NCBI RefSeq assembly: GCF_044792175.1
Contig: NZ_CP172866.1
Length of the DNA stretch: 64,000 nt
From: Corallococcus coralloides
GTDB taxonomy: Bacteria > Myxococcota > Myxococcia > Myxococcales > Myxococcaceae
Strand: one strand, 5' to 3'
Shown piece after piece: positions 1,243 through 32,500 of this stretch (the first letter of the stretch is position 1; every line of letters begins with the position of its first letter). The position numbers and the translations under genes were made by a program. The notes under the pieces are model-generated. The model was not told where the DNA came from, searched no databases, and saw only the letters and a program-made list of their open reading frames with translations.

Positions 1243-1457
1243 GTGCGGGGCGCAGTGTGCTTCGTGCTCTCGCGTTCTGTCCGCGAGTCACGGAGTGTTG
1301 AAAATTGTCAGGTGCGTGACACGCCCTGTCAAACGTACCGGCGTCGAAATATTGAAACGGGGGTGTTGTTCCCCGGCATGTTCCTGTTTTCACGGGCTGT
1401 ACCCGTGGCACGGTGTGGGTACTCCCGAAGCCGCCTCCCGAAAGAGGAGTTCCGCCC

Positions 1458-2216
1458 ATGAGCCCGCCCGTGTTCCTCACCTCCGCGCTGCTGCCGGTGC
1501 CGCACGGCTTCGCCACGCGCGCGGGTGGGGTGTCCGAAGGGCCCTACGCGTCGCTGAACCTGGGCTTCTCCGTGGGGGACGAGCGCCCCCGCGTGGAGGA
1601 GAACCACCGCCGGCTGGCCCAGGCCGCGGGCGGGCGCCTGGGCGCGCTCTGCCGGGTGTCCCAGGTGCACGGCGACACGGTGCTGGAGGCGCGCGGCGAG
1701 GCCGACGACGTGCTGCGCCCGACGCTGGGCGAGGCGGACGCGCTGTGGACGGAAGGGGAGGGAAGCTGGGTGGCGGTGGGCACCGCGGACTGCGTGCCGG
1801 TGCTGATCGTGGATCCGCGAGCCCGGCGCGTGGCGGCGGTGCACTCCGGATGGAAGGGCACGGACCTGGAGATCAGCGCCCGCACGGTGGAGGCGCTGGT
1901 GGCGAAGGGCAGCCGGCCGGAGGACCTGGTGGCGGCGGTGGGCCCCTGCATCCAGGCGTGCTGCTACGAGGTCTCCCCGGAGCTGGGCGACCGCTTCCGC
2001 GCGCGCTTCGGCCCGGAGGTCGTCCGCGCAGGGACGAGGCCCCACCTGGACCTGCCACGCGCGGTGAGGGCGTCCCTGCGGAAGGCGGGCCTCGGGCCGG
2101 AGCGCGTGGACGTGCTACAGGCCTGTACGGCGTGTGATCCGGACCGGTTCTTCTCCCACCGCCGGGACGCGGGCCGCACCGGGCGTCACCTCAACTACGT
2201 GCTGCACCGCTTCTAG
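1458..2216 (+). CDS. pgeF: YfiH/PgeF family protein (peptidoglycan editing factor / purine nucleoside phosphorylase, DUF152)
   Basis: MSPPVFLTSALLPVPHGFATRAGGVSEGPYASLNLGF...AVGTADCVPVLIVD...AAVHSGWKG is the typical YfiH motif set. The start was moved to the internal ATG at 1458. Confidence 0.8.
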   Translation: MSPPVFLTSALLPVPHGFATRAGGVSEGPYASLNLGFSVGDERPRVEENHRRLAQAAGGRLGALCRVSQVHGDTVLEARGEADDVLRPTLGEADALWTEGEGSWVAVGTADCVPVLIVDPRARRVAAVHSGWKGTDLEISARTVEALVAKGSRPEDLVAAVGPCIQACCYEVSPELGDRFRARFGPEVVRAGTRPHLDLPRAVRASLRKAGLGPERVDVLQACTACDPDRFFSHRRDAGRTGRHLNYVLHRF

Positions 2217-2274
2217 CGGAGGGCCCGTGGGGTCGTTTTCTTGACGGTCTCCGACCGGCCTTCCTATCCTCGAC

Positions 2275-3171
2275 GTGGAATTCCCTCCGTCCAGGCTCGT
2301 GCCGGTGCGTCCCTTCCTCTTCCGCCTGTTTGCCGCCGTCGCGCTGTCCGCGCCGACCGCCTGCGCCACCACCGCTGCCTCGCAGACGGAAGTGGGCCGG
2401 CTGGAGGCGGAGGTGCGCACGCTGCGCGCGTCCCAGGCGTCGCTGCTGGAGCGCCTGGAGCGGCTGGAGAACCGCGACGCCGTCGCCCGCGCCCGGAGCG
2501 CCGCCCCGGCCCCCGCCGCGAAACCCGCCGCCCCCGCCAGCGCGAAGCCGGAGGCCGCCTCGGCGGAGCCGGGCGAGGCGCTGAGCCTGGCGCCGGCGGA
2601 GCTGACGGTGGTGCGGCTCAAGCCGAAGAAGGAGCCCGCGCCGCGCATCAACACGGCCGTGGCGGTGGTGGAGCCGGACGCGGACCAGATGGAGATGTTC
2701 ATCTCCCCGGTGGAGGGCTCGTCCGGCACCGGCTCGGTCGGCTCGCTCAGCGCCTCGACCGCCGCCCGCATGGAGCCGCCGGAGAAGGATCCGGACATCC
2801 TCGACGCCGAGTACGAGCGCGCGGTGGCCATGCTGCGCACCGGCAACGTGGAGGGCGGCGTGGAGCAGCTCACGCGCTTCGCGGCGGAGAACCCGCGCCA
2901 CCCCCGCGCCGACAACGCCCTGTACTTCAGCGGCCTGGGCCAGATGGGCCTCCAGGATCCGACGGGCGCGGCGAAGACGTTCGAACGGCTCATCAAGACC
3001 TACCCCGCCGGGGACGCCGTCCAGGACGGCATGCTCCGGCTCGCGGAGTGCCGGGTGCGGCTGAACCAGGCCGTGGATGCCCGTGCCCTCTATACCCGCG
3101 TCGTCACCCAGTTCCCGGGGACGGCCGCCGCCACGCAGGCGGAGCAGCGGCTCGCCGCGCTCTCGCCGTAA
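2275..3171 (+). CDS. YbgF/CpoB-like periplasmic protein with an N-terminal coiled coil and C-terminal TPR repeats
   Basis: It has a signal-like N-terminus, a coiled-coil (EVGRLEAEVRTLRASQASLLERLERLENR), an Ala/Pro linker and a C-terminal TPR-like region (NALYFSGLGQMGLQDPTGAAKTFERLIKTYPAGDAVQDGMLRLAECRVRLNQAVDARALYTRVV). The start is GTG at 2275; an alternative GTG lies at 2305. Confidence 0.6.
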   Translation: MEFPPSRLVPVRPFLFRLFAAVALSAPTACATTAASQTEVGRLEAEVRTLRASQASLLERLERLENRDAVARARSAAPAPAAKPAAPASAKPEAASAEPGEALSLAPAELTVVRLKPKKEPAPRINTAVAVVEPDADQMEMFISPVEGSSGTGSVGSLSASTAARMEPPEKDPDILDAEYERAVAMLRTGNVEGGVEQLTRFAAENPRHPRADNALYFSGLGQMGLQDPTGAAKTFERLIKTYPAGDAVQDGMLRLAECRVRLNQAVDARALYTRVVTQFPGTAAATQAEQRLAALSP

Positions 3172-3198
3172 GCCCTTTTTGTGAAAGGACGTCGTCCG

Positions 3199-4413
3199 AT
3201 GCGCTCCCGGATCCTCGCCTCCCTGCTCGTGCCCCTCACCGTCGCGCCGGCATGGACGGCTTTCGCCCAGGACGCGCAGGAGGAGGAGTCCCAGCCGTCC
3301 TCCGAGACGGAGGGGCAGGACATCTCCGACGACGTGGAGCAGCGCCCCACCTCCGTCGCGCTGCCGCCCGGCGCCCCGCAGGGCCGTGAGAGCGCGCCCG
3401 GCCAGGTGCACACCGTGGAGACGGGCGACACGCTGTGGGACCTGTCCCAGCGCTACCTGGGCAGCCCCTGGTACTGGCCCAAGGTCTGGTCCTACAACCC
3501 GCAGATCGCCAACCCGCACTGGATCTACCCGGGCAACAACGTGAAGTTCTTCGCCGGCGGCGAGGAGGTCCCCGCGCGCGTGGAGGGCGGCGACCTGCCC
3601 TCGGATGACGTGGCGGCGCCCACGGACGTGAGCGGCGGCAGCCTGGTGTCGGTGGTCGGGAAGATCGGCTTCGACCCGTCCAAGTCCAGCCCGGTGACGA
3701 CCAAGGGCTTCGTGACGACGCGCGAGCTGGACGAGGCGGGCCGCATCGAGGGCTCGACCTCCGAGGCGCTGATGCTCTCCGCCCCGGAGAAGGTCTACCT
3801 GCGCTTCAAGAAGCGCGGCGCCGCCAAGATTGGCGACCGCTACGTCATCTTCCACACCGTGGAAGAGGTGAAGCACCCCATCACCAACGCGCGCACGGGC
3901 TACCTCACGGAGCTGCTGGGCACGGTGCAGGTCGTCTCCATCCACAACGACGTGGTCACCGCGCGCATCACGGAGACGTGGGACCCCATCGCCCGCGGCG
4001 ACCTGGTGGGCCCCTCCAGCGAGAAGCTGACGGAGCGCGTCGCCCCCAAGCCCAACAGCAAGGAGATCCCCGGCTACGTGCTCACGCCGATGACGCCGGG
4101 CCAGACGCTGCTGGGCGAGCACAACTTCGTCGTGGTGGACCGCGGCACCGCGGACGGCGTGCAGGTGGGCAACACCTTCACCATCGAGCGCCGCGGCGAC
4201 CCCAGCAAGGACGTGCTGGGCCGCGGCGACTACAAGATGGGCGACGCGGGCAAGGAGCAGAAGGCCTACCCCTGGGAGGCCGTGGCCCAGTGCATGGTCA
4301 CGGAAGTGCGCGAGCGCACCTCCAACTGCCTGATGGTCCGCTCCCTGGTGGAGGTCTCCGCTGGCGACCGCGCCACCATGCGCAAGGACGGGACGCCCAC
4401 CGCCAGCCGCTGA
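3199..4413 (+). CDS. LysM peptidoglycan-binding domain protein (secreted)
   Basis: It has a signal peptide (MRSRILASLLVPLTVAPAWTAFAQD) and a LysM motif (HTVETGDTLWDLSQRYLGSPWYWPKVWSYNPQIANPHWIYPGNNV). ATG 3199 is preceded by an AAAGGA Shine-Dalgarno; the track frame starts at GTG 3181. Confidence 0.8.
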   Translation: MRSRILASLLVPLTVAPAWTAFAQDAQEEESQPSSETEGQDISDDVEQRPTSVALPPGAPQGRESAPGQVHTVETGDTLWDLSQRYLGSPWYWPKVWSYNPQIANPHWIYPGNNVKFFAGGEEVPARVEGGDLPSDDVAAPTDVSGGSLVSVVGKIGFDPSKSSPVTTKGFVTTRELDEAGRIEGSTSEALMLSAPEKVYLRFKKRGAAKIGDRYVIFHTVEEVKHPITNARTGYLTELLGTVQVVSIHNDVVTARITETWDPIARGDLVGPSSEKLTERVAPKPNSKEIPGYVLTPMTPGQTLLGEHNFVVVDRGTADGVQVGNTFTIERRGDPSKDVLGRGDYKMGDAGKEQKAYPWEAVAQCMVTEVRERTSNCLMVRSLVEVSAGDRATMRKDGTPTASR

Positions 4414-8466: not shown

Positions 8467-9222
8467 ATGATTCCCTCCATGAACGAGTTGCTGCGTGTGG
8501 TGGTGGCCGAGGCCGCTCCCGCCGCGGCGGGCCATGCCTCTTCGGGAGGCCTGGGGGACTTCATCGTCGGCGCGTTCAAGGCCGGCGGTCCGTTCATGTT
8601 CGTGAACCTGTTCTGGCTGGCGGCGTCGCTGGCGGTGATTGGCGAGCGCGCGGTGACGCTGCTCTACCGCTACCGCCTCAACGCGACGGCGTTCATCGAG
8701 CAGGTCCACAAGATGGTCCGCAGCGGCAACCTGGACCGCGCGGTGAAGTTCTGCGGCATGGCGCCGCGCTCGCCCCTGGCCCGCGTCATCCGCGCGGGGC
8801 TCATCAACGCGAACCGGGGGGAGCTGGAGGTGGCCAAGGCGGTGGAGGAGGCGCTGGCGGAGTACACGCCGCACGTGTCGCGCCGGGTGCAGTGGCTGTG
8901 GTCGCTCGCGAACATCGCGACGCTGGTGGGCCTGGTGGGCACCATCGTGGGCCTCATCGGCACCTTCCGCGCGCTGGGCAACGTGCCGGCGGAGCAGAAG
9001 CAGGCGCTGCTCTCCAACGGCATCTCGGAGGCCATGTACAACACGGGCTTCGGCCTCTCCATCGCGGTGCTGTGCATCGTGTCGCACCTGTTCTTCAGCA
9101 ACTACGCCAAGAACATGGTGGAGCTGGTGGAGCTCAACGCGCTGAAGCTGGAGAACCTCCTGTCGCGCCGGGGCTCGCTGGAAGTCGTCCCCGCGGACTC
9201 CGACGTCCGCGCCGCGTCTTGA
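8467..9222 (+). CDS. MotA/TolQ/ExbB family proton-channel protein
   Basis: Three TM helices and the typical motif LANIATLVGLVGTIVGLIGTFRALG...LSNGISEAMYNTGFGLSIAV. The start was moved to ATG 8467. Confidence 0.85.
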   Translation: MIPSMNELLRVVVAEAAPAAAGHASSGGLGDFIVGAFKAGGPFMFVNLFWLAASLAVIGERAVTLLYRYRLNATAFIEQVHKMVRSGNLDRAVKFCGMAPRSPLARVIRAGLINANRGELEVAKAVEEALAEYTPHVSRRVQWLWSLANIATLVGLVGTIVGLIGTFRALGNVPAEQKQALLSNGISEAMYNTGFGLSIAVLCIVSHLFFSNYAKNMVELVELNALKLENLLSRRGSLEVVPADSDVRAAS

Positions 9223-9250
9223 ACCGCGCTGCACGGGCCACGGACACGCC

Positions 9251-9775
9251 ATGGCGTTCCACTACTCGCGCCGAAAGCTGAAGCCGAGGGAAGAGGAGGA
9301 GGCGGGCGAGCTGAACATCGTCCCGTACCTCGACATCCTCATGAACCTCATCATCTTCATGCTGCTGTCGATCACCGGCCTCACCGCCTTCGGCGCGCTC
9401 AACGTGAACGCGCCCAGCTACGGCGCCACCGCGGGGGCGGGCGGTGACGCGGACGCGCCCAAGCTGAACCTGTCCGTGCTCATCTCCCAGAAGGGGCTCA
9501 CCGTCCGGGGCAACAGCGAGGTCATCCCCGTCACGCAAGGGGGCGCGCCCACGCTGCCCCTGCGCGCGGACGGCACGCAGGACTTCGCCGCGCTCAACGC
9601 CCAGATGGTGAAGCTCAAGGCCGCCTTCCCCACGGAGACGAAGGTCATCGTCGCGGCGGAGGGGAACGTCCCCTACGAGTCGCTGATCCAGACGATGGAC
9701 GCCCTGCGTGAGACGACGGGCACCGCCGCCGAGCGCAAGCTGCTCTTCCCCGACGTCACCCTGGGCGCCCTCTAG
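9251..9775 (+). CDS. ExbD/TolR family biopolymer transport protein (1 of 2)
   Basis: ELNIVPYLDILMNLIIFMLL TM with a conserved Asp, and a periplasmic C-terminal domain. Confidence 0.85.
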   Translation: MAFHYSRRKLKPREEEEAGELNIVPYLDILMNLIIFMLLSITGLTAFGALNVNAPSYGATAGAGGDADAPKLNLSVLISQKGLTVRGNSEVIPVTQGGAPTLPLRADGTQDFAALNAQMVKLKAAFPTETKVIVAAEGNVPYESLIQTMDALRETTGTAAERKLLFPDVTLGAL

Positions 9776-9777
9776 CC

Positions 9778-10368
9778 ATGTCCGAACCCGCGCCCCTGTC
9801 CGCCGAGGAAGCCGACCAGCTCGCGCGCATGCGCTACCGCCGGGCGCTCGCGCGCAAGAAGCGCAAGGAGCGCGAGGCCGCCAGCGAGGTGAAGGAGCTC
9901 AACATCACCGCGATGATGGACATGATGACCATCATCCTGGTGTTCCTCCTGAAGTCCTTCGCGTCGTCCTCCGCGGCCATCACCGCGTCCGAGGATGTCC
10001 GGCCGCCGGTGTCCTCCACGCGCGCCACGCCCAAGGACACGGTGGCCGTCACCATCACCCCCCGCTTCATCCTGGTGGGGGACAAAGAGGTGGTGCGGCT
10101 GGAGAACGGCGTCATCCCGAAGGAGCAGCGCTCGGGGGACCCGCGGCAGGGGCGCCTGGTGCTGGGGTTGGATCAGCGTCTGAAGAAGGAAGTGGAGAAG
10201 CTCAAGCTGATCGCCGCGCGCAACCCGGCGGCGCCCTTCACGCACGAGCTGTCGGTCATCGCGGACAAGATGGTCCCGTATGATCTGCTGCTCGACGTGC
10301 TCTACACGGCGGGCGAGAACGAGCTGCAGAACTACCGCTTCATCGTGCTCCAGCGCGACGCGGAGTAG
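9778..10368 (+). CDS. ExbD/TolR family biopolymer transport protein (2 of 2)
   Basis: ELNITAMMDMMTIILVFLL TM with a conserved Asp. It starts 3 nt after the previous stop. Confidence 0.85.
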   Translation: MSEPAPLSAEEADQLARMRYRRALARKKRKEREAASEVKELNITAMMDMMTIILVFLLKSFASSSAAITASEDVRPPVSSTRATPKDTVAVTITPRFILVGDKEVVRLENGVIPKEQRSGDPRQGRLVLGLDQRLKKEVEKLKLIAARNPAAPFTHELSVIADKMVPYDLLLDVLYTAGENELQNYRFIVLQRDAE

Positions 10369-10429
10369 CCGCCGGACACACGACTCCCCCGCGCGGGATG
10401 GACGCACGGGGGAGGGCTGGACGGCTTCG

Positions 10430-10822
10430 CTAGAGGGACAGGCTGCCCACGTGGCGCGCGGCCTCTCGCGTCTCCTGCTCGTGCACGGCGGCGTCCTCTT
10501 CACAGCGGATGGCGAAGGGCATGGCCTCCAGCCGGTCCAGGGAGATCTCGTTGCCGCAGTCCACGCACTCACCGAACACGTCGTTGTCCATGCGGCTCAG
10601 CGCGGCGTCGATGAGCATGATCTCCCGGCGCTGCGCTTCAATCAGCGTGCTGAGCGTGTAGTCCGCCAGCTCCGCCTGCGCCTGCTCCTCGTACTCGGGA
10701 TCACGCTCCTGATCCTTCAGGGCGGCCAGCTCGCGGCGTGCGCCCGCCTGGGCGGTCTCGGTCGTCCTGCGGCGCTCCTGCAACAGGCCCCGGATCTTCA
10801 ACAAGTCGTCGGCTCGGCTCAT
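10430..10822 (-). CDS. DksA/TraR family C4-type zinc-finger transcription factor
   Basis: A coiled-coil N-terminus plus CVDCGNEISLDRLEAMPFAIRC (a C4 finger). Confidence 0.75.
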   Translation of the reverse strand: MSRADDLLKIRGLLQERRRTTETAQAGARRELAALKDQERDPEYEEQAQAELADYTLSTLIEAQRREIMLIDAALSRMDNDVFGECVDCGNEISLDRLEAMPFAIRCEEDAAVHEQETREAARHVGSLSL

Positions 10823-11050: not shown

Positions 11051-12415
11051 ATGTCGGACGTGAAGCAGCAGCGGGTGACGGTGATTGGCGGGGGCCTGGC
11101 GGGGACGGAGTGCGCGTATCAACTGGCGCGGCGCGGCGTGCCGGTGGTGCTGCGGGAGATGAAGCCGCACAAGCGCTCTCCGGCGCACAAGTCGGACACG
11201 CTCGCGGAGCTGGTGTGCAGCAACTCGCTGCGCTCGGACAACCCGGAGAGCGCCATTGGCCTCCTGCACGCGGAGCTGCGCGCGCTGGGGTCGCTGGTGC
11301 TCTCCAGCGCGGACCTGCACCGCGTGCCCGCGGGCGACGCGCTGGCGGTGGAGCGCGAGGGCTTCTCGCGCGAAATCACCACCCGGCTCGTCTCCGGCGC
11401 GGGCGTGGAGCTGGTGGGCGGTGAGGTGGAGCGGCTGCCGGAGGACGGCGTGGTGGTGGTGGCCACGGGGCCGCTGACGTCGGAGGCGCTCACGGCGGAC
11501 CTGGAGCGCCACGTGGGCACGAAGCTCTACTTCTACGACTCCATCGCGCCCATCCTGTCCGGTGACTCCATCGACATGGACATCGCCTTCCGCCAGAGCC
11601 GCTACGGCAAGGGCGGCGGGGACGACTACCTCAACCTGCCCATGACGAAGGACGAGTACTACCGCTTCGTCCACGAGGTGAAGGCGGGCCAGAAGGTGGT
11701 GCCGCACAGCTTCGAGGAACCGAAATACTTCGAAGGGTGTCTGCCCATCGAGGTGATGGCCGAGCGCGGCGACGACACGCTGGCCTACGGGCCCATGAAG
11801 CCCGTGGGGCTGAAGGACCCCCGGACGGGGACGGATCCGTACGCGGTGGTGCAGTTGCGCATGGAGGACCGGGCGGGCACGGCGTGGAACATGGTGGGCT
11901 TCCAGACGCGTCTGACCTGGGGTGAACAGAAGCGCATCTTCAGCACGTGCATCCCGGGCCTCCAGAATGCGGAGTTCCTGCGGATGGGGCAGATCCACCG
12001 CAACACGTTCATCGACTCGCCCCGCCTGCTGGCGGAGGACCTGTCGTTGAAGACGGAGCGGCGGGTGTTCTTCGCGGGACAGGTGACGGGCGTGGAGGGC
12101 TACGTGGAGAGCGCGGCGTGCGGCTACCTGGTGGCGCTGGCGGTGCACGCGCGGCTGACGGGCACGGCGTTCGTGCCGCCCCCGGCCACGACGGCGCTGG
12201 GGTCGCTGTACCGGCACCTCACCGGGGAAGCGCACCCGCCGGACCACCCGCACCAGCCCACGAACGTCATCTACGGCCTGTTCCCGCCGCTGTCCGGGCG
12301 GATGAAGAAGGCGGACAAGCGCGCGGCCTACTCGGCGCGGGCGAAGCAGGACCTGGCGGCCTGGCTGCCACTCGCGGGCGTTGTCGCCCAGACGGAAGGA
12401 CAGACGAGCGCATGA
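11051..12415 (+). CDS. trmFO: Methylenetetrahydrofolate--tRNA-(uracil54-C5)-methyltransferase TrmFO (Gid)
   Basis: [33 protein letters not shown]...[18 protein letters not shown]... The track ORF was trimmed to MSDVKQQ. Confidence 0.9.
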
Positions 12416-14031
12416 AGCGAACCGGGATGGTGGGCCTGGTGGCCCTGCTGGCGGTGTCGGGGTGCAAGAAGGGCGAGGACAACGCCGCGCCCTCGCAGCG
12501 CAGCGCCGCGCAGGGGGACACGGTCCGCAGCGCGGCGAAGGGCACCACGGTGGTGGGCGGTCAGGGGCAGTTGCTCGCGGCGGGACGGGCGGCGGACCTG
12601 CGCCTGTCGCCGGACGGGCAGTTCGCCACGTTCCTGCTCAACGGGCAGAAGCCCCGGCTGGACGGCATCCCGCCGCAGATGCTGGTGGGCTCGCTGCACG
12701 TCGTGCCGACGGCGGGCGGGAAGGCGCGCGCGCTGGGCGACGGCGTGACGAACGTGCCGGGCAGCCTGCTGTTCTCCCAGGACTCGAAGCACCTCTTGTA
12801 CGTGACGGGCTACAACCCGGCCTCGCAGTCCGGCGAGCTGAACGTGCTGTCGCTCACGGACGCGGGCGCGGAGCCGGTGAAGCTGGGCACGGCGGTGAGC
12901 TACCTGCTGCCGTCTCCGGACGGGGTGAACGTGGCCTTCGTGGACGCGGGCACGCTGAAGCTGGGCAAGCTGCCGCAGGGGCCGTTCCAGGACGTGGCGG
13001 GCGAGGTGAGCACCGCGCAGTTCACCCCGGACGGCAAGACGCTGCTCTTCAAGCGCCGGCTGTCCGCCGCGGGCGGGCTGGCGGCGGTGACGGTGGGCGC
13101 CACGGAGGCGCCGCGCAAGCTGGCGGATCAGGTGGGCGACTACCAGGTGTCCTCCGACGGCAAGCACGTGGCCTACCAGGTGCGCAGCGAGGCCGTGCGA
13201 GGCATGTATGACCTGTACCTCGCGGCCCTGCCGGCGCTGAAGGGCACGAAGCTGGCCACGGGCACGAAGACGTTCGGCTTCTCGCCGGATGGCCAGTGGC
13301 TGGCGCGCACGGAGAACGGCAAGCCGGAGCAGTTGGGCGACCTGTACGTGGGCCCGGCGTCCGGCGGCGCGGGGCGCAAGCTGGGCGAGGCCGTGGAGGA
13401 GCTGGCGTTCGCGCCGGACTCCAAGGCGGTGGGCTTCCTGGAGAAGTACGACCAGCCGTCGCGCGCGGGCGGGCTCGCCGTGGCGTCGCTGCCGGACGGC
13501 GCGCCCAAGCGGGTGGGGGACCGGGTGCCCAACTTCGTGTGGGGCTCGGACAGCCGCTACGTGGCGTTCCTGTCGCGCTTCCTGAAGCCGGTGTTCTCCG
13601 TGGACCTGATGCTGTACGCGCTGGGGGAGGAGAAGGCGGAGAAGGTGCAGCCGGGGGTGTTCGGCTACGGCTTCGCGCCGAACAACAGCGCGGTGGTGTT
13701 CCGCACCAACTGCATCCGCAACGGCCGCGCGTGCGACTTCAAGGCCGTGGACCTGAACGCGAAGCCGGCCGAGGCGAAGACGTGGCTGCAGGGCATCTTC
13801 AGCTACAAGATCTCCGAGGACGGCGCCCGCGTGCTCGCGACGTACGCGCGCATGGACTCGGACACGTACGACGTGGCGGTCTACGACGTGAAGTCGGGGG
13901 CGCGGAAGACGCTCGACCAGGGCGTGCAGGTGCCCGTGTACTTCGCGGGCAAGGATGACGCGCGGGCCGTCTACATCATCGGCCAGGGGCAGAACCCCGG
14001 CGTGTACAGCGCCGTCGCCACCGCGCAGTAG
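12412..14031 (+). CDS. TolB-like (PD40/WD40-like beta-propeller) lipoprotein
   Basis: [20 protein letters not shown] lipobox, with repeated SPDG/TPDG/SSDGK/APDS propeller motifs. Its start codon overlaps the trmFO stop (ATGA). The real gene is the 3' part of the 11947..14031 track ORF. Confidence 0.7.
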
Positions 14032-15723: not shown

Positions 15724-18030
15724 GTGCACACCCGCACGGGGTGTGCTGTCTTCTCGCGCCGAATGGCACAGCTCGTCTATCGCCGCTATGGCGGCTCGCT
15801 CCAGGTCGACATCCCTGACTTCAACACCCTCACCGAGGCGGTGAGGATCCCCGCGACCCAGTGGATGGCGCTCGCGTGCCCCATGGAGGGCATCGCGTGT
15901 GATCCGCGCTTCCTCACGCTGATGGACGCGGACGGCAACCGCCGCATCCGCGTGGAGGAGCTGCGCGCGGCGGTGGACTGGACGGCGGCGCGGCTGCAGG
16001 ACCGCAAGGGCGCGGACGCGGGCAGCGACGTGCTGGAGCTGTCGGCGCTCTCCGAGACGGCCTCCAACCTCAGGGGCGCGGCGGAGCTGGTGCTGCGCAC
16101 GCTCAACGCGCCGGACACCACGAAGCTGTCGCTGGAGCAGCTTCGCACCAGTGACAAGGCGCTGCGCGACGCGGGCAAGAACGGCGACGGCATCATCGCC
16201 CCGGCGTCGCTGCCGGAGCGGCTGCGGCCCCTGGCGCAGTCCATCATCGCGGCCTTCCCGCAGGTGACGAACCGCGCGGGCCTGGCGGGCGTGGACGTGG
16301 GCCTGGTGAAGCGCTTCCGCGAGGAGCGCGCGGCCCTGCTCGCGCACCTGGGCGGCAGGGACGGCGTGTTCACCTGGGGCGCGGCGAGCCTGGACCAGGC
16401 GAAGCGCGTGCACGACGTGGCGCCGCTCCTGGACGGCTACTTCGTGCAGTGCCGGCTGGTGGCCGCGCAGCCGGAGGCCGCCGCCAGCCTGCGCCTGCGC
16501 GCGGACCGGGTGGAGGGCGCGCTGGGGGACCTGGGCGCCATGGGGAAGGCCGCGAACGAGCTGCCCATCGCGCCGCCGGACCCGAGCGGCGTGCTGGTGT
16601 GGGCGCGGCTGTACCGCGGCGCCGGCTACGAGAAGCTGGAGGCCTTCCACCAGGAGGTGGCGACGCCGCTGCTGGGCGACGGCGTGAAGCTGACGGACAC
16701 GGCCTGGCGCGAGCTGTCCGCGAAGGCGGAAGCCATCCTCGGCTGGCAGGCGAAGCGGGACGCAAGCCCGCTGCACGCGGTGGCGGACACGCTGGGCGCC
16801 GTGTCGGACGAGGAGCTGGACGCGCTGGAGGCGGTGAGCCGCGAGGACCTGTCGCTCAAGCCCACGCTGGACGTCATCGCGGAGCTGGAGCGGCTGGTGC
16901 TGTACCAGCGCTGGCTGCTGCAGTTCGCCAACAACTTCATCAGCATGCCCAACCTGTACCTGCCCAAGCGGCGGGCGCTGATGGAGCGGGGCTCGCTCAT
17001 CATGGCGGGGCGCAAGTACACGCTGTCCGTGCTGGTGACGGACCGCGCGGCGCACGCGGCGCTGACGGGGCAGGGGACCACCTGCATCCTCTACGTGAAG
17101 GTGCTGCCCCGCGACGCGGCGGACGCCTACGAGGTGGCGGTGCCCGTCACCGCCGGCCGCAGCACGGAGCTCGTCGTGGGCAAGCGCGGCGTGTTCTACG
17201 ACGTGGACGGCAAGGAGAGCGACGCCATCGTCACGCAGGTCATCCGCCAGCCCGTGTCGCTCTGGGAGTCGATGACCATGCCGTTCATGCGCATCGGCGC
17301 GTTCATCACCAGCAAGGTGGAGGGGCTGGCCGCGTCCGGTGAGAAGGACTTCGATGCGTCGCTGGAGTCCGGCTACAAGCAGACGGTGACCGCGCCTCCG
17401 CCCCCGGCGGCGCCGGCCCCGGCGGGTGCGGCGCCCGCAGCGGCTCCGGCGGGGGGCGGCATCGCGGGCGTGCTCGCGGCGGGCGGCATCGCGTTCGCGG
17501 CGCTGGGCTCGTCGCTGGCGTTCATCCTCACGCAGGTGAAGTCGCTCACGCTGGTGGACGTCATCACCGCGGCGACCATCCTCGCCATCGTGGTGATGGC
17601 GCCCGCGGGGCTGCTGGGGTGGTTGAAGCTGCGGCGGCGCAACCTGGCGCTGCTGCTGGAGGGCTCCGGCTGGGCGCTCAACGACCGGCTGATGCTCACG
17701 CGCGGCGTGGCGACGCTCATCACCCGCAGGCCCCGGATGCCGGGCAACGCGCGCGTGGACCACGCGGACCTGGTGCGCGGGGCGCTGCGCCACACGCAGG
17801 GCGACGACGAGTCCGAGAGCATGTCGTTCGGCGCCCGCCTGGGGCTCACGCTGCTCATCCTCTTCGTGCTGGGCTGGCAGGTGCGCGTGCCCGTCACCGA
17901 GTGGCTGTGCACGTACCACTGGCTGTCCGAGGACGCCTGCCGCGTGCTGTTGCCCAAGCTGGTGCCGTCTGAGTTGCCGGGCGCGCCCGCGCCTTCTGGG
18001 GCGGCGCCCGCTCCGGCGCCCGCGAAGTAG
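15724..18030 (+). CDS. Hypothetical large protein (~755-768 aa). It has a soluble N-terminal region, a Pro/Ala-rich linker and C-terminal TM helices.
   Basis: Non-repetitive sequence. Features include PPPPAAPAPAGAAPAAAPAGGG, then IAGVLAAGGIAFAALGSSLAFILTQV and VITAATILAIVVMAPAGLLGWL TMs, and a second TM pair near the C-terminus. The start may be ATG 15763 (MAQLVYRRYGG). Confidence 0.55.
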   Translation: MHTRTGCAVFSRRMAQLVYRRYGGSLQVDIPDFNTLTEAVRIPATQWMALACPMEGIACDPRFLTLMDADGNRRIRVEELRAAVDWTAARLQDRKGADAGSDVLELSALSETASNLRGAAELVLRTLNAPDTTKLSLEQLRTSDKALRDAGKNGDGIIAPASLPERLRPLAQSIIAAFPQVTNRAGLAGVDVGLVKRFREERAALLAHLGGRDGVFTWGAASLDQAKRVHDVAPLLDGYFVQCRLVAAQPEAAASLRLRADRVEGALGDLGAMGKAANELPIAPPDPSGVLVWARLYRGAGYEKLEAFHQEVATPLLGDGVKLTDTAWRELSAKAEAILGWQAKRDASPLHAVADTLGAVSDEELDALEAVSREDLSLKPTLDVIAELERLVLYQRWLLQFANNFISMPNLYLPKRRALMERGSLIMAGRKYTLSVLVTDRAAHAALTGQGTTCILYVKVLPRDAADAYEVAVPVTAGRSTELVVGKRGVFYDVDGKESDAIVTQVIRQPVSLWESMTMPFMRIGAFITSKVEGLAASGEKDFDASLESGYKQTVTAPPPPAAPAPAGAAPAAAPAGGGIAGVLAAGGIAFAALGSSLAFILTQVKSLTLVDVITAATILAIVVMAPAGLLGWLKLRRRNLALLLEGSGWALNDRLMLTRGVATLITRRPRMPGNARVDHADLVRGALRHTQGDDESESMSFGARLGLTLLILFVLGWQVRVPVTEWLCTYHWLSEDACRVLLPKLVPSELPGAPAPSGAAPAPAPAK

Positions 18031-26807: not shown

Positions 26808-29800
26808 CTACGCCTTGCGACGGCGCGCGAGCGCCATCGCCGCGAACAGCGCCATCAGCGGCGCCATGCCGCCAGCGGAGCCGCCCGTGGAGGAGCAGCC
26901 ACCGCCGTCGTCGGCCTTCGGCACGTTCACCGTGATGTTGGCGGTGCTGGTGGCACCCGCCGCGTCCTTCACCGTCACCTTGAAGGTGTAGTTCTCCAGC
27001 GTCTTCTTCGCCGGCGGGGTGAAGCTGGCCTCGGCGGAGTTGGCGCCGGTCAGCGTCACGGACGGGCCACCCGTCTGCTCCCAGGCGTAGGTCAGCGGCT
27101 CGTTGTCCGGATCCGTGGACGTGGAGGCGTCGATCTTCACCAGCTCACCGCCGCGCACGCCCGAGATGACCCGGACCTTGGCGACCGGCGCCTGGTTCAC
27201 CTGCTTCACGTTGACCGTGTAGACGTACGGGCCCGAGGCGGCGCCGTCCACGTCCGTCACCGTCAGGCTGAAGGCCACGGCCGTGTCGGCCTGGACCTGC
27301 GGCGCGGTGAACGCCAACTGCGCCGTGCCCGCGCCCGTGGTCTGCACCGTGGGGCCGCCGACCTGCGCCCAGACGTAGGTGAGCGCGTCACCGTCCGGAT
27401 CCGTGATGCCGGAAGCGTCCAGCACCACGTTGCTGCCCTCGTCCGCGTCGACGGAGGCCGGAGCCTGGCCCACCGGGTGGCGGTTGGCCTTGCGCACCGT
27501 CACGTTGACCAGGTCGGACACCGACACTCCGCCCGAGGACACCGTGAGCTTGAAGGTGAGCTCGGTGGGGGCGCTGACGTCCGGCGCCGTGAAGGTCGCC
27601 GTCGCCGTGTCCGCACCCGTCAGCGTCACCTGCGTGCCGCCCGTCTGCTCCCACAGGTAGGTCACCGCCGTGCCGTCCGCGTCCGAGCCGGAGCCGGCCA
27701 GCGTCACCGTGGAGCGGGCATCCGCGTCGAAGTCCGCGCCGGCGTTGGCCACCGGCTCACGGTCCACGTTCTTCACGTTCACGGCGACCGACTTGGTGGA
27801 CTTCGCGCCAGCGCTGTCCGTCACGGTGACCGTGAAGGTGAACTGCGTGTCCGCCGTCACTTCCGGCGCCGTGAACGTCGCCTTCGCCTTGGTGGCGTTG
27901 GCCAGCGTCACCTTGGGCGAGGCGGGGAGCGTCTGGACCCAGGCGTACGTCAGCGTGTTCGCGTGAATCACATCCGCGTCCGTGGAGCCCGAGGCGTCCA
28001 GCGTCACGTTGGTGTCACCCTCGTTCACCGTGGCCGGCGCGGTGGCCGCGGCCACCGGGGGCTGGTTCACGTTGACGACCTGGATGTCCACCGTCTTCGG
28101 GGCGCTCGCCTTGCCGGCCGCGTCGGTGACGACGAGCTGGAAGGAGAGGGTGTCCGTGTAGTCCACGTCCGCCACGAAGCTCGGGGTCGCGGTGTCCGCG
28201 CCGGTCAGGGAGACCGGCGTGGCGCCACCGACCTGCGTCCAGTTGTAGGTGAGCGTCTCGCCCGCGGCGGCATCCGGGTCGAAGCTGCCCGTGCCGTTCA
28301 GGGTGATGGTGGCGCGGTTGAGGACGCCGTTGACGAGCGTGCCCTCCGCCACCGCCGCCGTGCCCACGCGCGACGGACCCGCGTTGGCCACCGGCGGCAC
28401 GTTGCACGCGCCCGTGGAGGCCGCCTGATCCGCCTGGCCGGAGAACACCGCCGAGGCGCCCTCGAACGTCACGTCATCCACGTCCAGGCCGTAACCGCCC
28501 ACGGCCACGTCACCGCCGATGCGGAAGCGGAAGCGGACGTTCTTGAGCTCCAGGTCGGGGAAGAAGGTCCCGAAGTTGATGCTCGCGGTCTTGAACGCCG
28601 GGAAGCCCGTGCTCACCCGCGCCATCGCGGCGCGGTCCTCGAGCGGGTTGCCGCCGCCCGCGGCGATGTAGTCCACGTAGCCCGGATCCGCGTCCACCAC
28701 CGGGTACAGATCCCACGGGTCGATCCAGTCGATGCCGTCGACCGTGAACTCGAGCACCGCGCCGTCGTAGGAGGCGTTGGAGTCGAACTCGAAGGAGTGG
28801 CGGTACTTGTAGCTGATGATGAAGTCCGCCGCGTCGTCCACCTTCAGCCAGGGGCTGGTGATGGTCGTCTCCGCCGCCGTGCCCGGGTCGTTGCCGTGCG
28901 CGTAGCGGTTGGCCGGCGAGCCGGACAGCGTCCAGTCACCGGAGGAGGACAGGTTCTGCGACACCGTCCACCCGCGCAGGCCGGACTCGAACGTCTCCGT
29001 GTTGCTGGTGGTGGGGACGTGGTCGTAGTTGACGCGCGGGTCGAACGTCACCGTCTTCGCCGCCGCCGGGATCTCGTTGGTGTCGAAGACCACCTTGATG
29101 CCGGCGCGCGCGGGCGAGCCGGAGACCGCGGTGACGTTGACGGGCACGGTGATCGTCGCCGAGGCGCCGCGGGACAGGGCGGGGACGTTGATCGCCGCGC
29201 CGTTCGGGAACTCCAGCGTCGCCGTGGTGCTGGTGCTGCTGACGGTGCCGGAGAAGGCGCTCAGCCCGTTGCCGCCCACGTTGCGCACGGTGATCTTCAG
29301 CTCACCCTGCTCACCGATGTCGAGGATGCCGTCCTGGTCGCAGCCGCCCGCGCTGTCCGCCAGCGTGATGCTGGTGACCTCCAGGTTGCCGGCCGAGGCG
29401 AAGCTCTCCGTCACGCCGATGTGGTCGAACGCGTCGCGGTCCGGCGACTTGGCGCCGAAGCCGAGGCCGCGCTTGGCGAAGGCCGCCACGAAGCGCTGGT
29501 AGTCCGCCGGGTCGCTCGCGAGCGCCACGGCCAGCACCGCGTCACGCGCTTCCGTGAAGGTCGGCGCGTTCGGCGTCGCCTTGTAGGAGGCGACGAGGTA
29601 CCGCTTCATGCGGTCCTGCGCCTCCTGGAACGGGTGCGCGTTCAGCAGGCTCGTGTAGCACTCCCACAGCGCCGTGGCCCACACCTCACCGCTGTTGTGG
29701 ACCTCGCTGTTGTTGGCGGTGCTCGCCGTCGCCAGCTCGTTGGGCAGGGTCGTGAAGTTGGCGATGTGGCGGAACGTGTAGCCGTTCTTGCTCATGTCCG

Positions 29801-31955: not shown

Positions 31956-32500
31956 GCGCCTTCCTTCTTGGGGGTATGTACTGCCGGACGAGGGGACTGC
32001 GAGAGACGACGACTGCAAGAGGAGAGGTCCGCCGGGGGAGGCGGACCGCCCCGCTACGGATGGCGGACCGTGGATGGACGACAGCCCGATAGGAAACGCT
32101 GCCCAACGCCACAGGTCGCATGGGCGACGTGCGCGGGGACTTCAGCGTGCGAAGGCGGGACGCGCGAGGCGACCAGGGCGGGTGCGAAGCGCTGCGACTG
32201 GCCGGACAGCCCGGGCGCCACACCCGAACCCGGGGCGGCCCATCCGAATCGACTGTCAACGGTCACCGGCAAGCGCTGCTCTCCAACCCACTCTTCCAGG
32301 CGCGGTTGTCTTCACCGCGCCGGATTCAGTGGGAGCGCATGCTAACCAGGACACTGTTTCGTTGAAAAGAGGGGGGCCCCTGCAACTTTGCGTTAGCAAC
32401 CCAGTAACAATTGTCAGTCTGGAATAAGCCGTAGCAACCAGGCATGCGTGGCCATGACACAGGTGCCGCGCCGCACCTTGCGTGCGGGCGGAAACCCTGT

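What the first reader, a model, noticed from the sequence alone, without database searches (positions are those of the whole stretch)
8467..10368. A MotA/TolQ/ExbB protein plus two tandem ExbD/TolR proteins, with no tonB or tolA nearby. This could be an AglRQS-type motor or an ExbB-ExbD1-ExbD2 energiser.
The three-gene unit has one MotA/TolQ-family channel followed by two different ExbD/TolR-family single-pass proteins. Each carries the conserved TM aspartate (YLDILM and MMDMMT). That stoichiometry is the layout of the myxobacterial gliding-motility motor AglR-AglQ-AglS. It is also the layout of some TonB-independent ExbB-ExbD-ExbD energisers. No TonB, TolA, TolB-Pal or TonB-dependent receptor gene is adjacent; the next gene is a divergent DksA-like regulator. 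The TolB-like lipoprotein at 12412 is separated by trmFO.
Basis: partly seen in the sequence, partly recalled or inferred. Interest (0 to 1): 0.55.

Follow-up and report, generated by a model that had tools for sequence, protein, structure and literature searches.

The report
Second, non-gliding copy of AglRQS motor
The three genes are real, but they are the Corallococcus copy of a known "spare" paralog (M. xanthus MXAN_3003-3005) of the myxobacterial gliding motor; deleting that paralog does not affect gliding or sporulation in M. xanthus, so this is a catalogued proton motor whose job is still unknown.

Summary
Window 8467-10368 (+) encodes one MotA/TolQ/ExbB protein (251 aa) and two different ExbD/TolR proteins (174 and 196 aa). 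Each ExbD/TolR protein has an invariant transmembrane Asp (D28, D48). No tonB, tolA, pal or receptor gene lies in the 64 kb.

The window is Corallococcus. The layout is AglRQS-type, but this is not the gliding motor. Across 80 genomes the cluster sits in a fixed neighbourhood: PgeF, CpoB-like, LysM, dprA, topA, [R-Q-S], dksA-like, trmFO, aglU, hslVU. In the M. xanthus copy of that locus:
- The published cloning primers for MXAN_3003 match exactly at the first and last codons.
- The aglR primers are absent.
- Protein lengths (260/173/193) equal MXAN_3003/3004/3005, not aglRQS (245/162/194).
- The middle protein is identical to a DK1622 entry.

This is therefore the "M2" paralog. Published work shows that deleting MXAN_3004 leaves gliding and sporulation intact, and that MXAN_3003 does not bind GltG or NfsG.

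The most likely mechanism is a proton-driven R5:Q:S TolQR-like motor that energises a transducer encoded elsewhere. New points here:
- M2 synteny extends to Anaeromyxobacteraceae.
- The residue aligned to ExbB E176 is E in Corallococcus but K in Myxococcus.
- The TolB-like neighbour is the AglU ortholog.

Interest is low to moderate.

The parts
8467..9222 (+). R2: a TolQ/ExbB-type channel subunit (251 aa) and the ortholog of M. xanthus MXAN_3003 (AglR paralog). It has three predicted TM helices (about 40-58, 143-161, 192-210). T159 and T193 are invariant. E188 aligns to ExbB E176 / TolQ E173.
   Evidence: - Pfam MotA_ExbB, E=4e-22.
- NCBIfam tolQ and exbB scores are far below their cutoffs.
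- 67-69% identical to the M. xanthus gene that carries the published MXAN_3003 primers.
- AlphaFold2 model with pLDDT 85.5. Best PDB matches are TolQ and ExbB (TM 0.6-0.74); MotA is weaker at 0.47.
- Residue conservation.
- Hydropathy.
9251..9775 (+). Q2: an AglQ-type TolR/ExbD protein (174 aa) and the ortholog of MXAN_3004. It has a single TM helix with invariant D28 (YLDILM), followed by a variable Gly/Ala-rich linker.
   Evidence: - Pfam ExbD, E=2.2e-14.
- The M. xanthus ortholog is identical to ABF88211.1 of DK1622. Its 173 aa equal the length of MXAN_3004.
- D28 is invariant in 78 of 78 orthologs.
- The linker at about residues 55-72 is not conserved.
9778..10368 (+). S2: an AglS-type TolR/ExbD protein (196 aa) and the ortholog of MXAN_3005. 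It has a long basic cytoplasmic N-terminal tail (residues 1-40) and a single TM helix with invariant D48 (MMDMMT).
   Evidence: - Pfam ExbD, E=1.2e-11.
- Only 27% identical to Q2.
- The M. xanthus ortholog is 193 aa, the length of MXAN_3005.
- D48 is invariant in 77 of 77 orthologs.
10430..10822 (-). A DksA/TraR-type zinc-finger protein (130 aa), convergent with the cluster. It is a conserved neighbour at the MXAN_3006 position. Nothing shows it to be part of the motor.
   Evidence: - Pfam zf-dskA_traR, E=3e-8; NCBIfam DksA models score below cutoff.
- Present next to the cluster in Myxococcaceae, Archangiaceae, an Anaeromyxobacteraceae MAG and other MAGs, and absent in some.
12412..14031 (+). 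The AglU ortholog, a TolB-like PD40 outer-membrane lipoprotein (539 aa, lipobox LLAVSGC). Its start overlaps the trmFO stop by 4 nt. It is a conserved neighbour of the cluster, but a functional link is unproven.
   Evidence: - Pfam PD40.
- 67% identical to the M. xanthus gene at L026 7035-8678, which is 547 aa with a lipobox.
- This equals aglU MXAN_3008, 547 aa, described as a WD-repeat lipoprotein (PMC3169522 Table S1; bioRxiv 10.64898/2026.08.28.747804).

Best explanation
The cluster is the Corallococcus ortholog of the M. xanthus "M2" set MXAN_3003-3005. M2 is the second, non-motility copy of the AglRQS-type TolQ/TolR-like proton motor.

**Shown here**
- Its family, its orthology to M2 and its deep conservation.
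- Retention of the residues that line the ion path in TolQR and ExbBD: Thr159 and Thr193 in R2, Asp28 in Q2 and Asp48 in S2.

**Inferred by analogy** with the TolQ5R2 and ExbB5D2 structures and the published AglR5QS model
- Five R2 subunits form a ring in the inner membrane around one Q2-S2 heterodimer.
- Proton flow through the two Asp sites drives a conformational or rotary cycle.
- That cycle is passed on to a single-pass TonB/TolA/GltG-like transducer.

**More speculative**
- The transducer is encoded outside this window.
- The best candidates are the GltG paralogs of the motor-less Glt-like clusters G4 (MXAN_1919-1923) and G5 (MXAN_1327-1331).

It is not the gliding motor.
For: **Family**
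- Pfam MotA_ExbB plus two ExbD hits.
- The R2 model matches TolQ and ExbB with TM 0.6-0.74.

**Orthology to M2**
- Gene order is identical across about 14 flanking genes in 80 loci, including M. xanthus.
- In the M. xanthus locus L026, primer 3003-O1 (ATGGGCGCGCCCCG) matches exactly at the ATG of the 260-aa ORF. Primer 3003-O2 (CGAAGCGCGCGCCTC) matches at the last 15 nt before the stop.
- The aglR primers are absent from L026.
- Lengths of 260/173/193 aa equal MXAN_3003/4/5, against 245/162/194 for aglRQS.
- The Q protein is identical to DK1622 ABF88211.1.
- The gene count 3003 to 3008 fits aglU = MXAN_3008.

**Evidence that the genes are functional**
- D28, D48, T159 and T193 are invariant.
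- dN/dS is below 1.
- The same locus exists in an Anaeromyxobacteraceae MAG and in other deep-branching MAGs.

**Q/S specialisation like AglQ/AglS**
- Q2 has a variable linker and S2 a long N-terminal tail. The AglR5QS model describes the same features (PMC11761067).

**G4 and G5 lack motor genes**
- PMC3169522 Table S3.
Against: - No partner protein was identified here, and the stoichiometry is untested.
- In M. xanthus the MXAN_3004 deletion has no motility or sporulation phenotype. Polar mutations in the G4 and G5 gltD homologs also have no motility phenotype. There is therefore no positive functional evidence for any role.
- R2 position 188 (ExbB E176 equivalent) is not conserved; it flips between E and K.
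- I could not obtain the true AglR/Q/S sequences. The M1-versus-M2 distinction therefore rests on primers, lengths, an identical DK1622 protein and synteny, not on a tree that contains M1.
Confidence: 0.8

Rival explanations
1. It is the gliding-motility and spore-coat motor AglRQS itself, that is, the ortholog of MXAN_6862-6860.
For: - The R-Q-S layout is the same, with a TM Asp in both small subunits.
- D28 has the same number as the published AglQ D28N mutation.
- The R protein of M. xanthus at this locus is 245 aa if counted from the second ATG.
- The gliding gene aglU lies two genes downstream.
Against: - The published MXAN_3003 primers match the M. xanthus ortholog exactly, and the aglR primers do not occur there.
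- The Q and S lengths are 173 and 193 aa, not 162 and 194.
- The AglR N- and C-termini deduced from the aglR primers (DLASV......RDEE) do not fit this protein (my own reading of the primers).
- Locus-tag arithmetic places the cluster at 3003-3005.
Confidence: 0.03
2. It is a TonB-system energiser (ExbB-ExbD1-ExbD2) that powers TonB-dependent outer-membrane transporters, with tonB encoded elsewhere.
For: - It belongs to the same superfamily, and ExbB structures match nearly as well as TolQ.
- No transducer gene is adjacent, so a distal TonB is possible.
- ExbB-ExbD-ExbD operons are known in other phyla (own knowledge).
Against: - NCBIfam exbB and ExbD equivalog scores are 5-7 times below their cutoffs, and tolQ/tolR models score higher.
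- The cluster was placed in the Agl family, not among Exb sets, by Luciano et al..
- No receptor, tonB or iron-related gene occurs in any of about 85 syntenic loci.
Confidence: 0.07
3. It is the motor of a second, dispersed Tol-Pal-like envelope system. This system would work with conserved neighbours: the AglU TolB-like lipoprotein, the CpoB/YbgF-like TPR lipoprotein (2275-3171), the LysM protein (3181-4413) and PgeF.
For: - All these genes keep the same order around the cluster from Corallococcus to an Anaeromyxobacteraceae MAG.
- The TPR protein hits the tol_pal_ybgF model at 2.6e-21.
- TolQ is the best structural match.
- In lineages that lack the dksA-like gene, S2 abuts trmFO-aglU.
Against: - The ybgF hit is below its cutoff (76 against 90 bits).
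- The linkage runs through housekeeping genes (dprA, topA, trmFO, hslVU). These form an old conserved block on their own (own knowledge: smf-topA-gid-codV-clpQY in Bacillus).
- aglU mutants lose gliding and spore maturation, whereas the MXAN_3004 deletion does not.
- M. xanthus has a complete Tol-Pal system at MXAN_5753-5757.
- No TolA-like gene is present.
Confidence: 0.08
4. It is a redundant or decaying duplicate with no function of its own.
For: - No phenotype was reported for the MXAN_3004 deletion.
- An E/K charge reversal occurs at a TM3 position that matters in ExbB.
- dN/dS for Q2 and S2 is higher than for the neighbouring genes.
Against: - All three ORFs are intact in every one of about 85 loci across several families.
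- The catalytic Asp and Thr residues are invariant, and no frameshifts were seen.
Confidence: 0.03

Closest known systems
M. xanthus M2 cluster MXAN_3003-3005 (Luciano et al. 2011; Wartel et al. 2013)
   Same: - It is orthologous, with the same gene order R-Q-S.
- It has the same flanks: topA upstream; dksA-like, trmFO and aglU downstream.
- Identities are 67% / 68% / 73%.
- Lengths are nearly the same: 251/174/196 here against 245(260)/173/193.
   Different: - It comes from a different genus.
- R2 residue 188 is Glu here and Lys in M. xanthus.
- All functional data (no motility or sporulation phenotype, no GltG/NfsG interaction) come from M. xanthus, not Corallococcus.
AglRQS gliding and spore-coat motor (M1, MXAN_6862-6860)
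   Same: - Both have one TolQ-like protein plus two non-identical TolR-like proteins, each with a TM Asp.
- The Q-type protein has a long linker and the S-type protein a long N-terminal tail.
- Both are presumably pentamer-plus-heterodimer motors driven by proton-motive force.
   Different: - It is a separate paralog at a different locus.
- The Q protein is 174 aa here and 162 aa in M1.
- The M. xanthus ortholog of the window cluster cannot replace AglRQS and does not bind GltG or NfsG.
TolQ-TolR of the Tol-Pal system
   Same: - It gives the best fold match (TM 0.62-0.74).
- The TM2 and TM3 Thr residues and the TolR Asp are conserved.
- tolQ and tolR are the best-scoring NCBIfam models.
   Different: - The window has two different TolR-like proteins rather than a homodimer.
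- No tolA or pal is present.
- Scores are far below the equivalog cutoffs (47.6 against 221; 40.4 against 127).
- M. xanthus has its true Tol-Pal system elsewhere.
ExbB-ExbD (TonB system), including ExbB-ExbD-ExbD operons
   Same: - The fold is the same (TM about 0.6-0.7) and the ExbD Pfam family is shared.
- The Glu aligned to ExbB E176 is present in the Corallococcus protein.
   Different: - No tonB or receptor gene is linked.
- Equivalog scores are 5-7 times below the cutoffs.
MotA-MotB / PomA-PomB flagellar stators
   Same: They belong to the same superfamily of 5:2 ion-driven motors.
   Different: - The structural match is weaker (TM about 0.47).
- The small subunits are ExbD/TolR-type, not OmpA-type MotB.

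Membership tests
M2 paralog set (MXAN_3003-3005 orthogroup) | Orthology to MXAN_3003, anchored by a published sequence | tested here: met
   In the syntenic M. xanthus locus L026, primers 3003-O1 and 3003-O2 match exactly at 3050-3063 and 3815-3829, which are the start and the last codons of the R gene. The window R2 is 67-69% identical to that gene.
M2 paralog set (MXAN_3003-3005 orthogroup) | Protein lengths and annotation of MXAN_3003/4/5 (260/173/193 aa) | tested here: met
   The L026 ORFs are 260 aa (from the first ATG), 173 aa and 193 aa. The 173-aa protein is identical to DK1622 ABF88211.1.
M2 paralog set (MXAN_3003-3005 orthogroup) | Conserved genomic position (topA upstream; trmFO and aglU/MXAN_3008 downstream) | tested here: met
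   The order is the same in the window, in 80 genome loci and in 3 further MAG lineages. aglU = MXAN_3008.
AglRQS gliding motor (M1) | Orthology to MXAN_6862/6861/6860 (245/162/194 aa) | tested here: not met
   The aglR primers are absent from the orthologous M. xanthus locus. The Q and S lengths differ. The locus is MXAN_3003-3005.
AglRQS gliding motor (M1) | One TolQ-like protein plus two distinct TolR-like proteins with a TM Asp | tested here: met
AglRQS gliding motor (M1) | R subunit binds GltG/NfsG; genes required for gliding and spore coat | not testable with these tools
   Published results for the M. xanthus ortholog are negative. MXAN_3003 shows no two-hybrid signal with GltG or NfsG, and the MXAN_3004 deletion glides and sporulates (PMC3858216; PMC3169522). 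Nothing is known for Corallococcus.
5:2-type TolQ/ExbB/MotA ion-driven motors | MotA_ExbB fold with three TM helices and conserved TM2 and TM3 Thr | tested here: met
   - Pfam and hydropathy.
- Model with pLDDT 85.5, matching TolQ/ExbB chains at TM 0.6-0.74.
- T159 and T193 align to the TolQ/ExbB Thr residues and are invariant.
5:2-type TolQ/ExbB/MotA ion-driven motors | Small subunit with a single TM helix carrying the proton-binding Asp | tested here: met
   Q2 D28 and S2 D48 are invariant.
5:2-type TolQ/ExbB/MotA ion-driven motors | Pentamer:dimer stoichiometry and dependence on proton-motive force | not testable with these tools
   Only single chains can be modelled here. The AglR5QS stoichiometry is itself a prediction (PMC11761067).
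Tol-Pal system | TolQ/TolR equivalog scores, with tolA-tolB-pal adjacent | tested here: not met
   NCBIfam tolQ scores 47.6 against 221 and tolR 40.4 against 127.3. No tolA or pal is in the window.
TonB-ExbB-ExbD system | ExbB/ExbD equivalog scores, with tonB or a TonB-dependent receptor linked | tested here: not met
   NCBIfam exbB scores 31.6 against 206 and ExbD 25 against 216. No tonB or receptor is present in the window or in the syntenic loci.
Zorya-type defence motors | A match to ZorA/ZorB or other defence models | tested here: not met
   PADLOC gives no hit for any of the three proteins.

The most novel reading that the evidence does not exclude
M2 is an old, positionally fixed Agl-type motor with its own undiscovered job. 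It is present from Myxococcaceae to an Anaeromyxobacteraceae MAG, always between topA and trmFO-aglU. One possibility is that it energises the motor-less Glt-like G4/G5 envelope complexes. Another is a Tol-like envelope task carried out with AglU and the CpoB-like and LysM neighbours. The E188/K188 switch would mark a functional difference between the Corallococcus and Myxococcus versions, so the negative M. xanthus phenotypes need not apply here.
Probability: 0.25. Interest if true: 0.55.

Novelty: already known. Interest (0 to 1): 0.3.

Why it matters
The result prevents a mis-annotation. A motif-and-layout reading would call this the A-motility motor, but it is the paralog that published genetics shows to be dispensable for gliding and sporulation.

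The open question is what a strongly conserved second Agl-type proton motor does. That is a real but modest gap in myxobacterial cell-envelope biology. Three observations made here give concrete handles for experiments:
- The deep synteny of the locus.
- The constant linkage with aglU.
- The E/K dimorphism at the ExbB-E176 position.

None of them changes the picture of how such motors work.

Tried and rejected
**1. Attempts to obtain the true AglR/Q/S (M1) sequences for a reciprocal comparison and a tree.** All failed.
- The single-protein search listed only M2-type hits in its top 120.
- The 50%-representative search gave unlabelled representatives.
- A profile of 224-aa representatives returned Haliangiales/Kofleriaceae-type proteins.
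- The NJ sister lineage P0182 turned out to be another syntenic M2-type set from a delta MAG.
- No fetched protein carries the AglR termini deduced from the primers.

**2. Metagenome scan with aglR primer gmoA-O1.** It gave 43 chance matches, none next to a MotA/ExbD gene.

**3. Literature access.** Sun et al. 2011 (PNAS) is not held. Supplements of the 2025 structural-model paper and of the 2026 Tn-seq preprint are not held.

**4. PDB search.** No Agl structure exists.

**5. The 768-aa conserved neighbour (15724-18030) as a possible GltG/TonB-like partner.** Rejected. It has no Pfam or NCBIfam hit, three C-terminal TM segments and no TonB-like features.

**6. Promoter and terminator scan.** Nothing above chance.

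**7. Defence-system reading.** Rejected.

**8. First guess from lengths.** Counted from the second ATG, the M. xanthus R protein is 245 aa, the same as AglR. Counting the Q protein from an internal GTG gives 162 aa. This briefly suggested M1, but Table S3, the identical DK1622 protein and the primers overturned it.
Full report
**What is there.** The window has about 70% GC. Filtering ORFs by third-position GC gives a clean gene map. At 8467-9222, 9251-9775 and 9778-10368 (+) lie three tightly packed genes with gaps of 28 and 2 nt.
- The first gene is a MotA/TolQ/ExbB protein (Pfam E=4e-22).
- The other two are ExbD/TolR proteins (E=2e-14 and 1e-11).
- The two ExbD/TolR proteins are only 27% identical to each other.
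- RefSeq annotates the same three proteins with the same ends, under generic names.

Pfam scans of the confidently called genes across the 64 kb found no TonB, TolA, Pal or TonB-dependent receptor, and no second motor set. The only correction is that the DksA-like gene is convergent with the cluster, not divergent.

**Whose genome, and which paralog.** The proteins are 98% identical to Corallococcus interemptor and C. exercitus proteins. M. xanthus has two complete Agl-type sets (PMC3169522 and PMC3858216):
- M1 is aglRQS (MXAN_6862-6860; 245/162/194 aa).
- M2 is MXAN_3003-3005 (260/173/193 aa).

The question is therefore which of the two this is.

A scan of species-representative genomes returned 80 loci. 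A tblastn comparison of 18 window genes showed the same order in all of them, as far as each contig reaches: HAMP-GAF(-), PgeF, CpoB-like TPR, LysM, dprA, topA, R, Q, S, dksA-like(-), trmFO, PD40 lipoprotein, then hslVU and argD. One of these loci, L026, is M. xanthus strain AM003. Five lines of evidence identify its cluster as M2:
- (a) The R gene read from its first ATG is 260 aa. The Q gene is 173 aa and the S gene 193 aa. These are exactly the Table S3 lengths for MXAN_3003/4/5.
- (b) The 173-aa protein is identical, end to end, to ABF88211.1, a "conserved hypothetical protein" of DK1622. MXAN_3004 is listed as a 173-aa hypothetical protein, whereas AglQ is 162 aa.
- (c) The gene-specific parts of the primers used by Wartel et al. 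to clone "3003" for two-hybrid assays (supplement of PMC3858216) match exactly and uniquely. 3003-O1 matches at 3050-3063 (the ATG) and 3003-O2 at 3815-3829 (the last five codons).
- (d) The aglR primers do not occur in the locus, even with two mismatches allowed.
- (e) Counting genes from 3003 puts the PD40 lipoprotein at 3008. aglU is MXAN_3008, a 547-aa WD-repeat lipoprotein. The L026 gene is 547 aa with a lipobox.

The window cluster is therefore the ortholog of M2, not of the gliding motor.

An early length coincidence pointed the other way: 245 aa for R counted from the second ATG, and 162 aa for Q counted from an internal GTG. Points (a)-(e) overturned it.

- An in-frame deletion of MXAN_3004 affects neither motility nor glycerol-induced sporulation.
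- MXAN_3003 gives no two-hybrid signal with GltG or NfsG, whereas AglR does.
- Its function is stated to be unknown, and I found no later paper that addresses it.

**Is it a working motor?** The evidence is circumstantial but consistent.
- Across 81 R, 78 Q and 77 S orthologs, the TM Asp of Q2 (D28) and of S2 (D48) is invariant.
- The two R2 threonines (T159, T193) are also invariant. They align with the TM2 and TM3 Thr of TolQ and ExbB.
- dN/dS against three relatives is 0.2-0.6. This is higher than for topA and trmFO but below 1. dS is compressed by the extreme codon bias, so these ratios are upper estimates.
- An AlphaFold2 model of R2 (pLDDT 85.5) matches TolQ and ExbB chains at TM 0.6-0.74 and MotA/PomA only at about 0.47.
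- NCBIfam tolQ, tolR, exbB and ExbD equivalog models all hit, but 3-7 times below their cutoffs, with tolQ and tolR best. The cluster is thus neither a bona fide Tol nor a bona fide Exb set.
- Q2 has a variable Gly/Ala-rich linker after its TM helix, and S2 has a 40-residue basic N-terminal tail. The published AglR5QS model uses the same division of labour to explain why that motor needs two TolR-like proteins (PMC11761067).

By analogy I infer an R2(5):Q2:S2 complex driven by proton flow through the two Asp sites. The stoichiometry and the dependence on proton-motive force were not tested here.

**What it drives.** Nothing in the window answers this. TonB-, TolA- and GltG-like proteins are absent. 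The conserved 768-aa neighbour has no such features.

Two leads exist:
- First lead: M. xanthus has two Glt-like clusters, G4 (MXAN_1919-1923) and G5 (MXAN_1327-1331). Each has a GltG paralog but no motor genes. M2 is the obvious orphan motor for them. This is inference only.
- Second lead: the neighbourhood has a Tol-Pal flavour. It contains a CpoB/YbgF-like TPR lipoprotein (tol_pal_ybgF model, 2.6e-21, below cutoff), PgeF, a LysM protein and the TolB-like AglU.

Against the second lead:
- The linkage runs through a block of housekeeping genes (dprA, topA, trmFO, xerC, hslVU).
- aglU mutants have motility and spore phenotypes that the MXAN_3004 deletion lacks.
- M. xanthus has a complete Tol-Pal system elsewhere.

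**New observations.**
- (i) The M2-type locus is much older than Myxococcaceae. An Anaeromyxobacteraceae MAG and two other MAG lineages carry R-Q-S (216-259 / 175-178 / 192-193 aa) in the same place, between topA and dksA-like/trmFO/AglU-like/xerC. Identities to the window proteins are 49-63% (R), 46-53% (Q) and 49-65% (S). Non-syntenic R-Q-S sets from other Myxococcota-like contigs are clearly more distant in Q and S, at 29-40%.
- (ii) R2 residue 188 aligns with ExbB E176 / TolQ E173 (residue numbers from my own knowledge). It is strictly dimorphic. It is Glu in all Corallococcus, Citreicoccus, the distant MAGs and the Anaeromyxobacteraceae MAG. It is Lys in Myxococcus (including M. xanthus), Pyxidicoccus, Archangium, Hyalangium and Vitiosangium. 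The version tested genetically is therefore the Lys form, and the window carries the Glu form.

**Limits.** I never obtained the AglR/Q/S sequences themselves. No tree containing M1 could be built, and percent identity to M1 is unknown. The identification as M2 nonetheless rests on several largely independent lines. I put it at about 0.95, and the generic motor mechanism at about 0.75. For the partner, the G4/G5 or Tol-like readings together get roughly one chance in four.

**Verdict.** The feature is real and correctly delimited, and its family was correctly recognised. However, it is the already catalogued, functionally silent M2 paralog rather than the A-motility motor or a TonB energiser. 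Interest is low to moderate.

Noticed in passing
window 9028-9030 (R2 codon 188); loci L001-L080: The R2 residue aligned to ExbB E176 / TolQ E173 is Glu in 42 orthologs: all Corallococcus, Citreicoccus and the distant MAGs. It is Lys in 39: Myxococcus including M. xanthus, Pyxidicoccus, Archangium, Hyalangium and Vitiosangium. No other residue occurs at this position. The neighbouring pore residues are invariant.
   Followed up: partly
window 12412-14031 (+): The TolB-like PD40 lipoprotein is the ortholog of AglU (MXAN_3008), a gliding and spore-maturation protein. Its ATG overlaps the trmFO stop by 4 nt, so the two genes are probably co-translated. The pairing of the R-Q-S cluster with this gene is kept even in an Anaeromyxobacteraceae MAG.
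   Followed up: partly
window 1413-4413 (+): PgeF (peptidoglycan editing factor), a CpoB/YbgF-like coiled-coil plus TPR protein (tol_pal_ybgF model, 76 bits against a cutoff of 90) and a secreted LysM protein form a conserved trio upstream of dprA-topA in all related loci.
   Followed up: partly
L124, L126/L127, L128 (MAG contigs): The whole block dprA-topA-[MotA+2xExbD]-dksA-like-trmFO-AglU-like-xerC-hslVU resembles the smf-topA-gid-codV-clpQY block of Firmicutes (own knowledge), with the motor and the lipoprotein inserted. Some lineages have extra insertions: a P-type ATPase in L126/127 and MFS transporters in L128.
   Followed up: partly
L129 7479-13656: A 7-Mb MAG contig carries two divergently transcribed MotA+ExbD+ExbD sets back to back, directly beside rodA-pbp2-mreD-mreC-mreB.
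   Followed up: no
window 40906-51141 (-): Three very large consecutive ORFs (about 1303, 806 and 1283 aa) have essentially no Pfam hits. The only one is a faint Hint-domain match in the middle ORF.
   Followed up: no
window 26808-32018 (-): A 1736-aa secreted M36 fungalysin-type metalloprotease with a PA domain and a long run of PKD/Ig-like repeats.
   Followed up: no
window 10372-10428: A GC-rich inverted repeat (CTCCCCCG...CGGGGGAG) lies between the convergent S2 and dksA-like genes and could be a bidirectional terminator. The simple terminator scan did not call it because it has no T-run.
   Followed up: no
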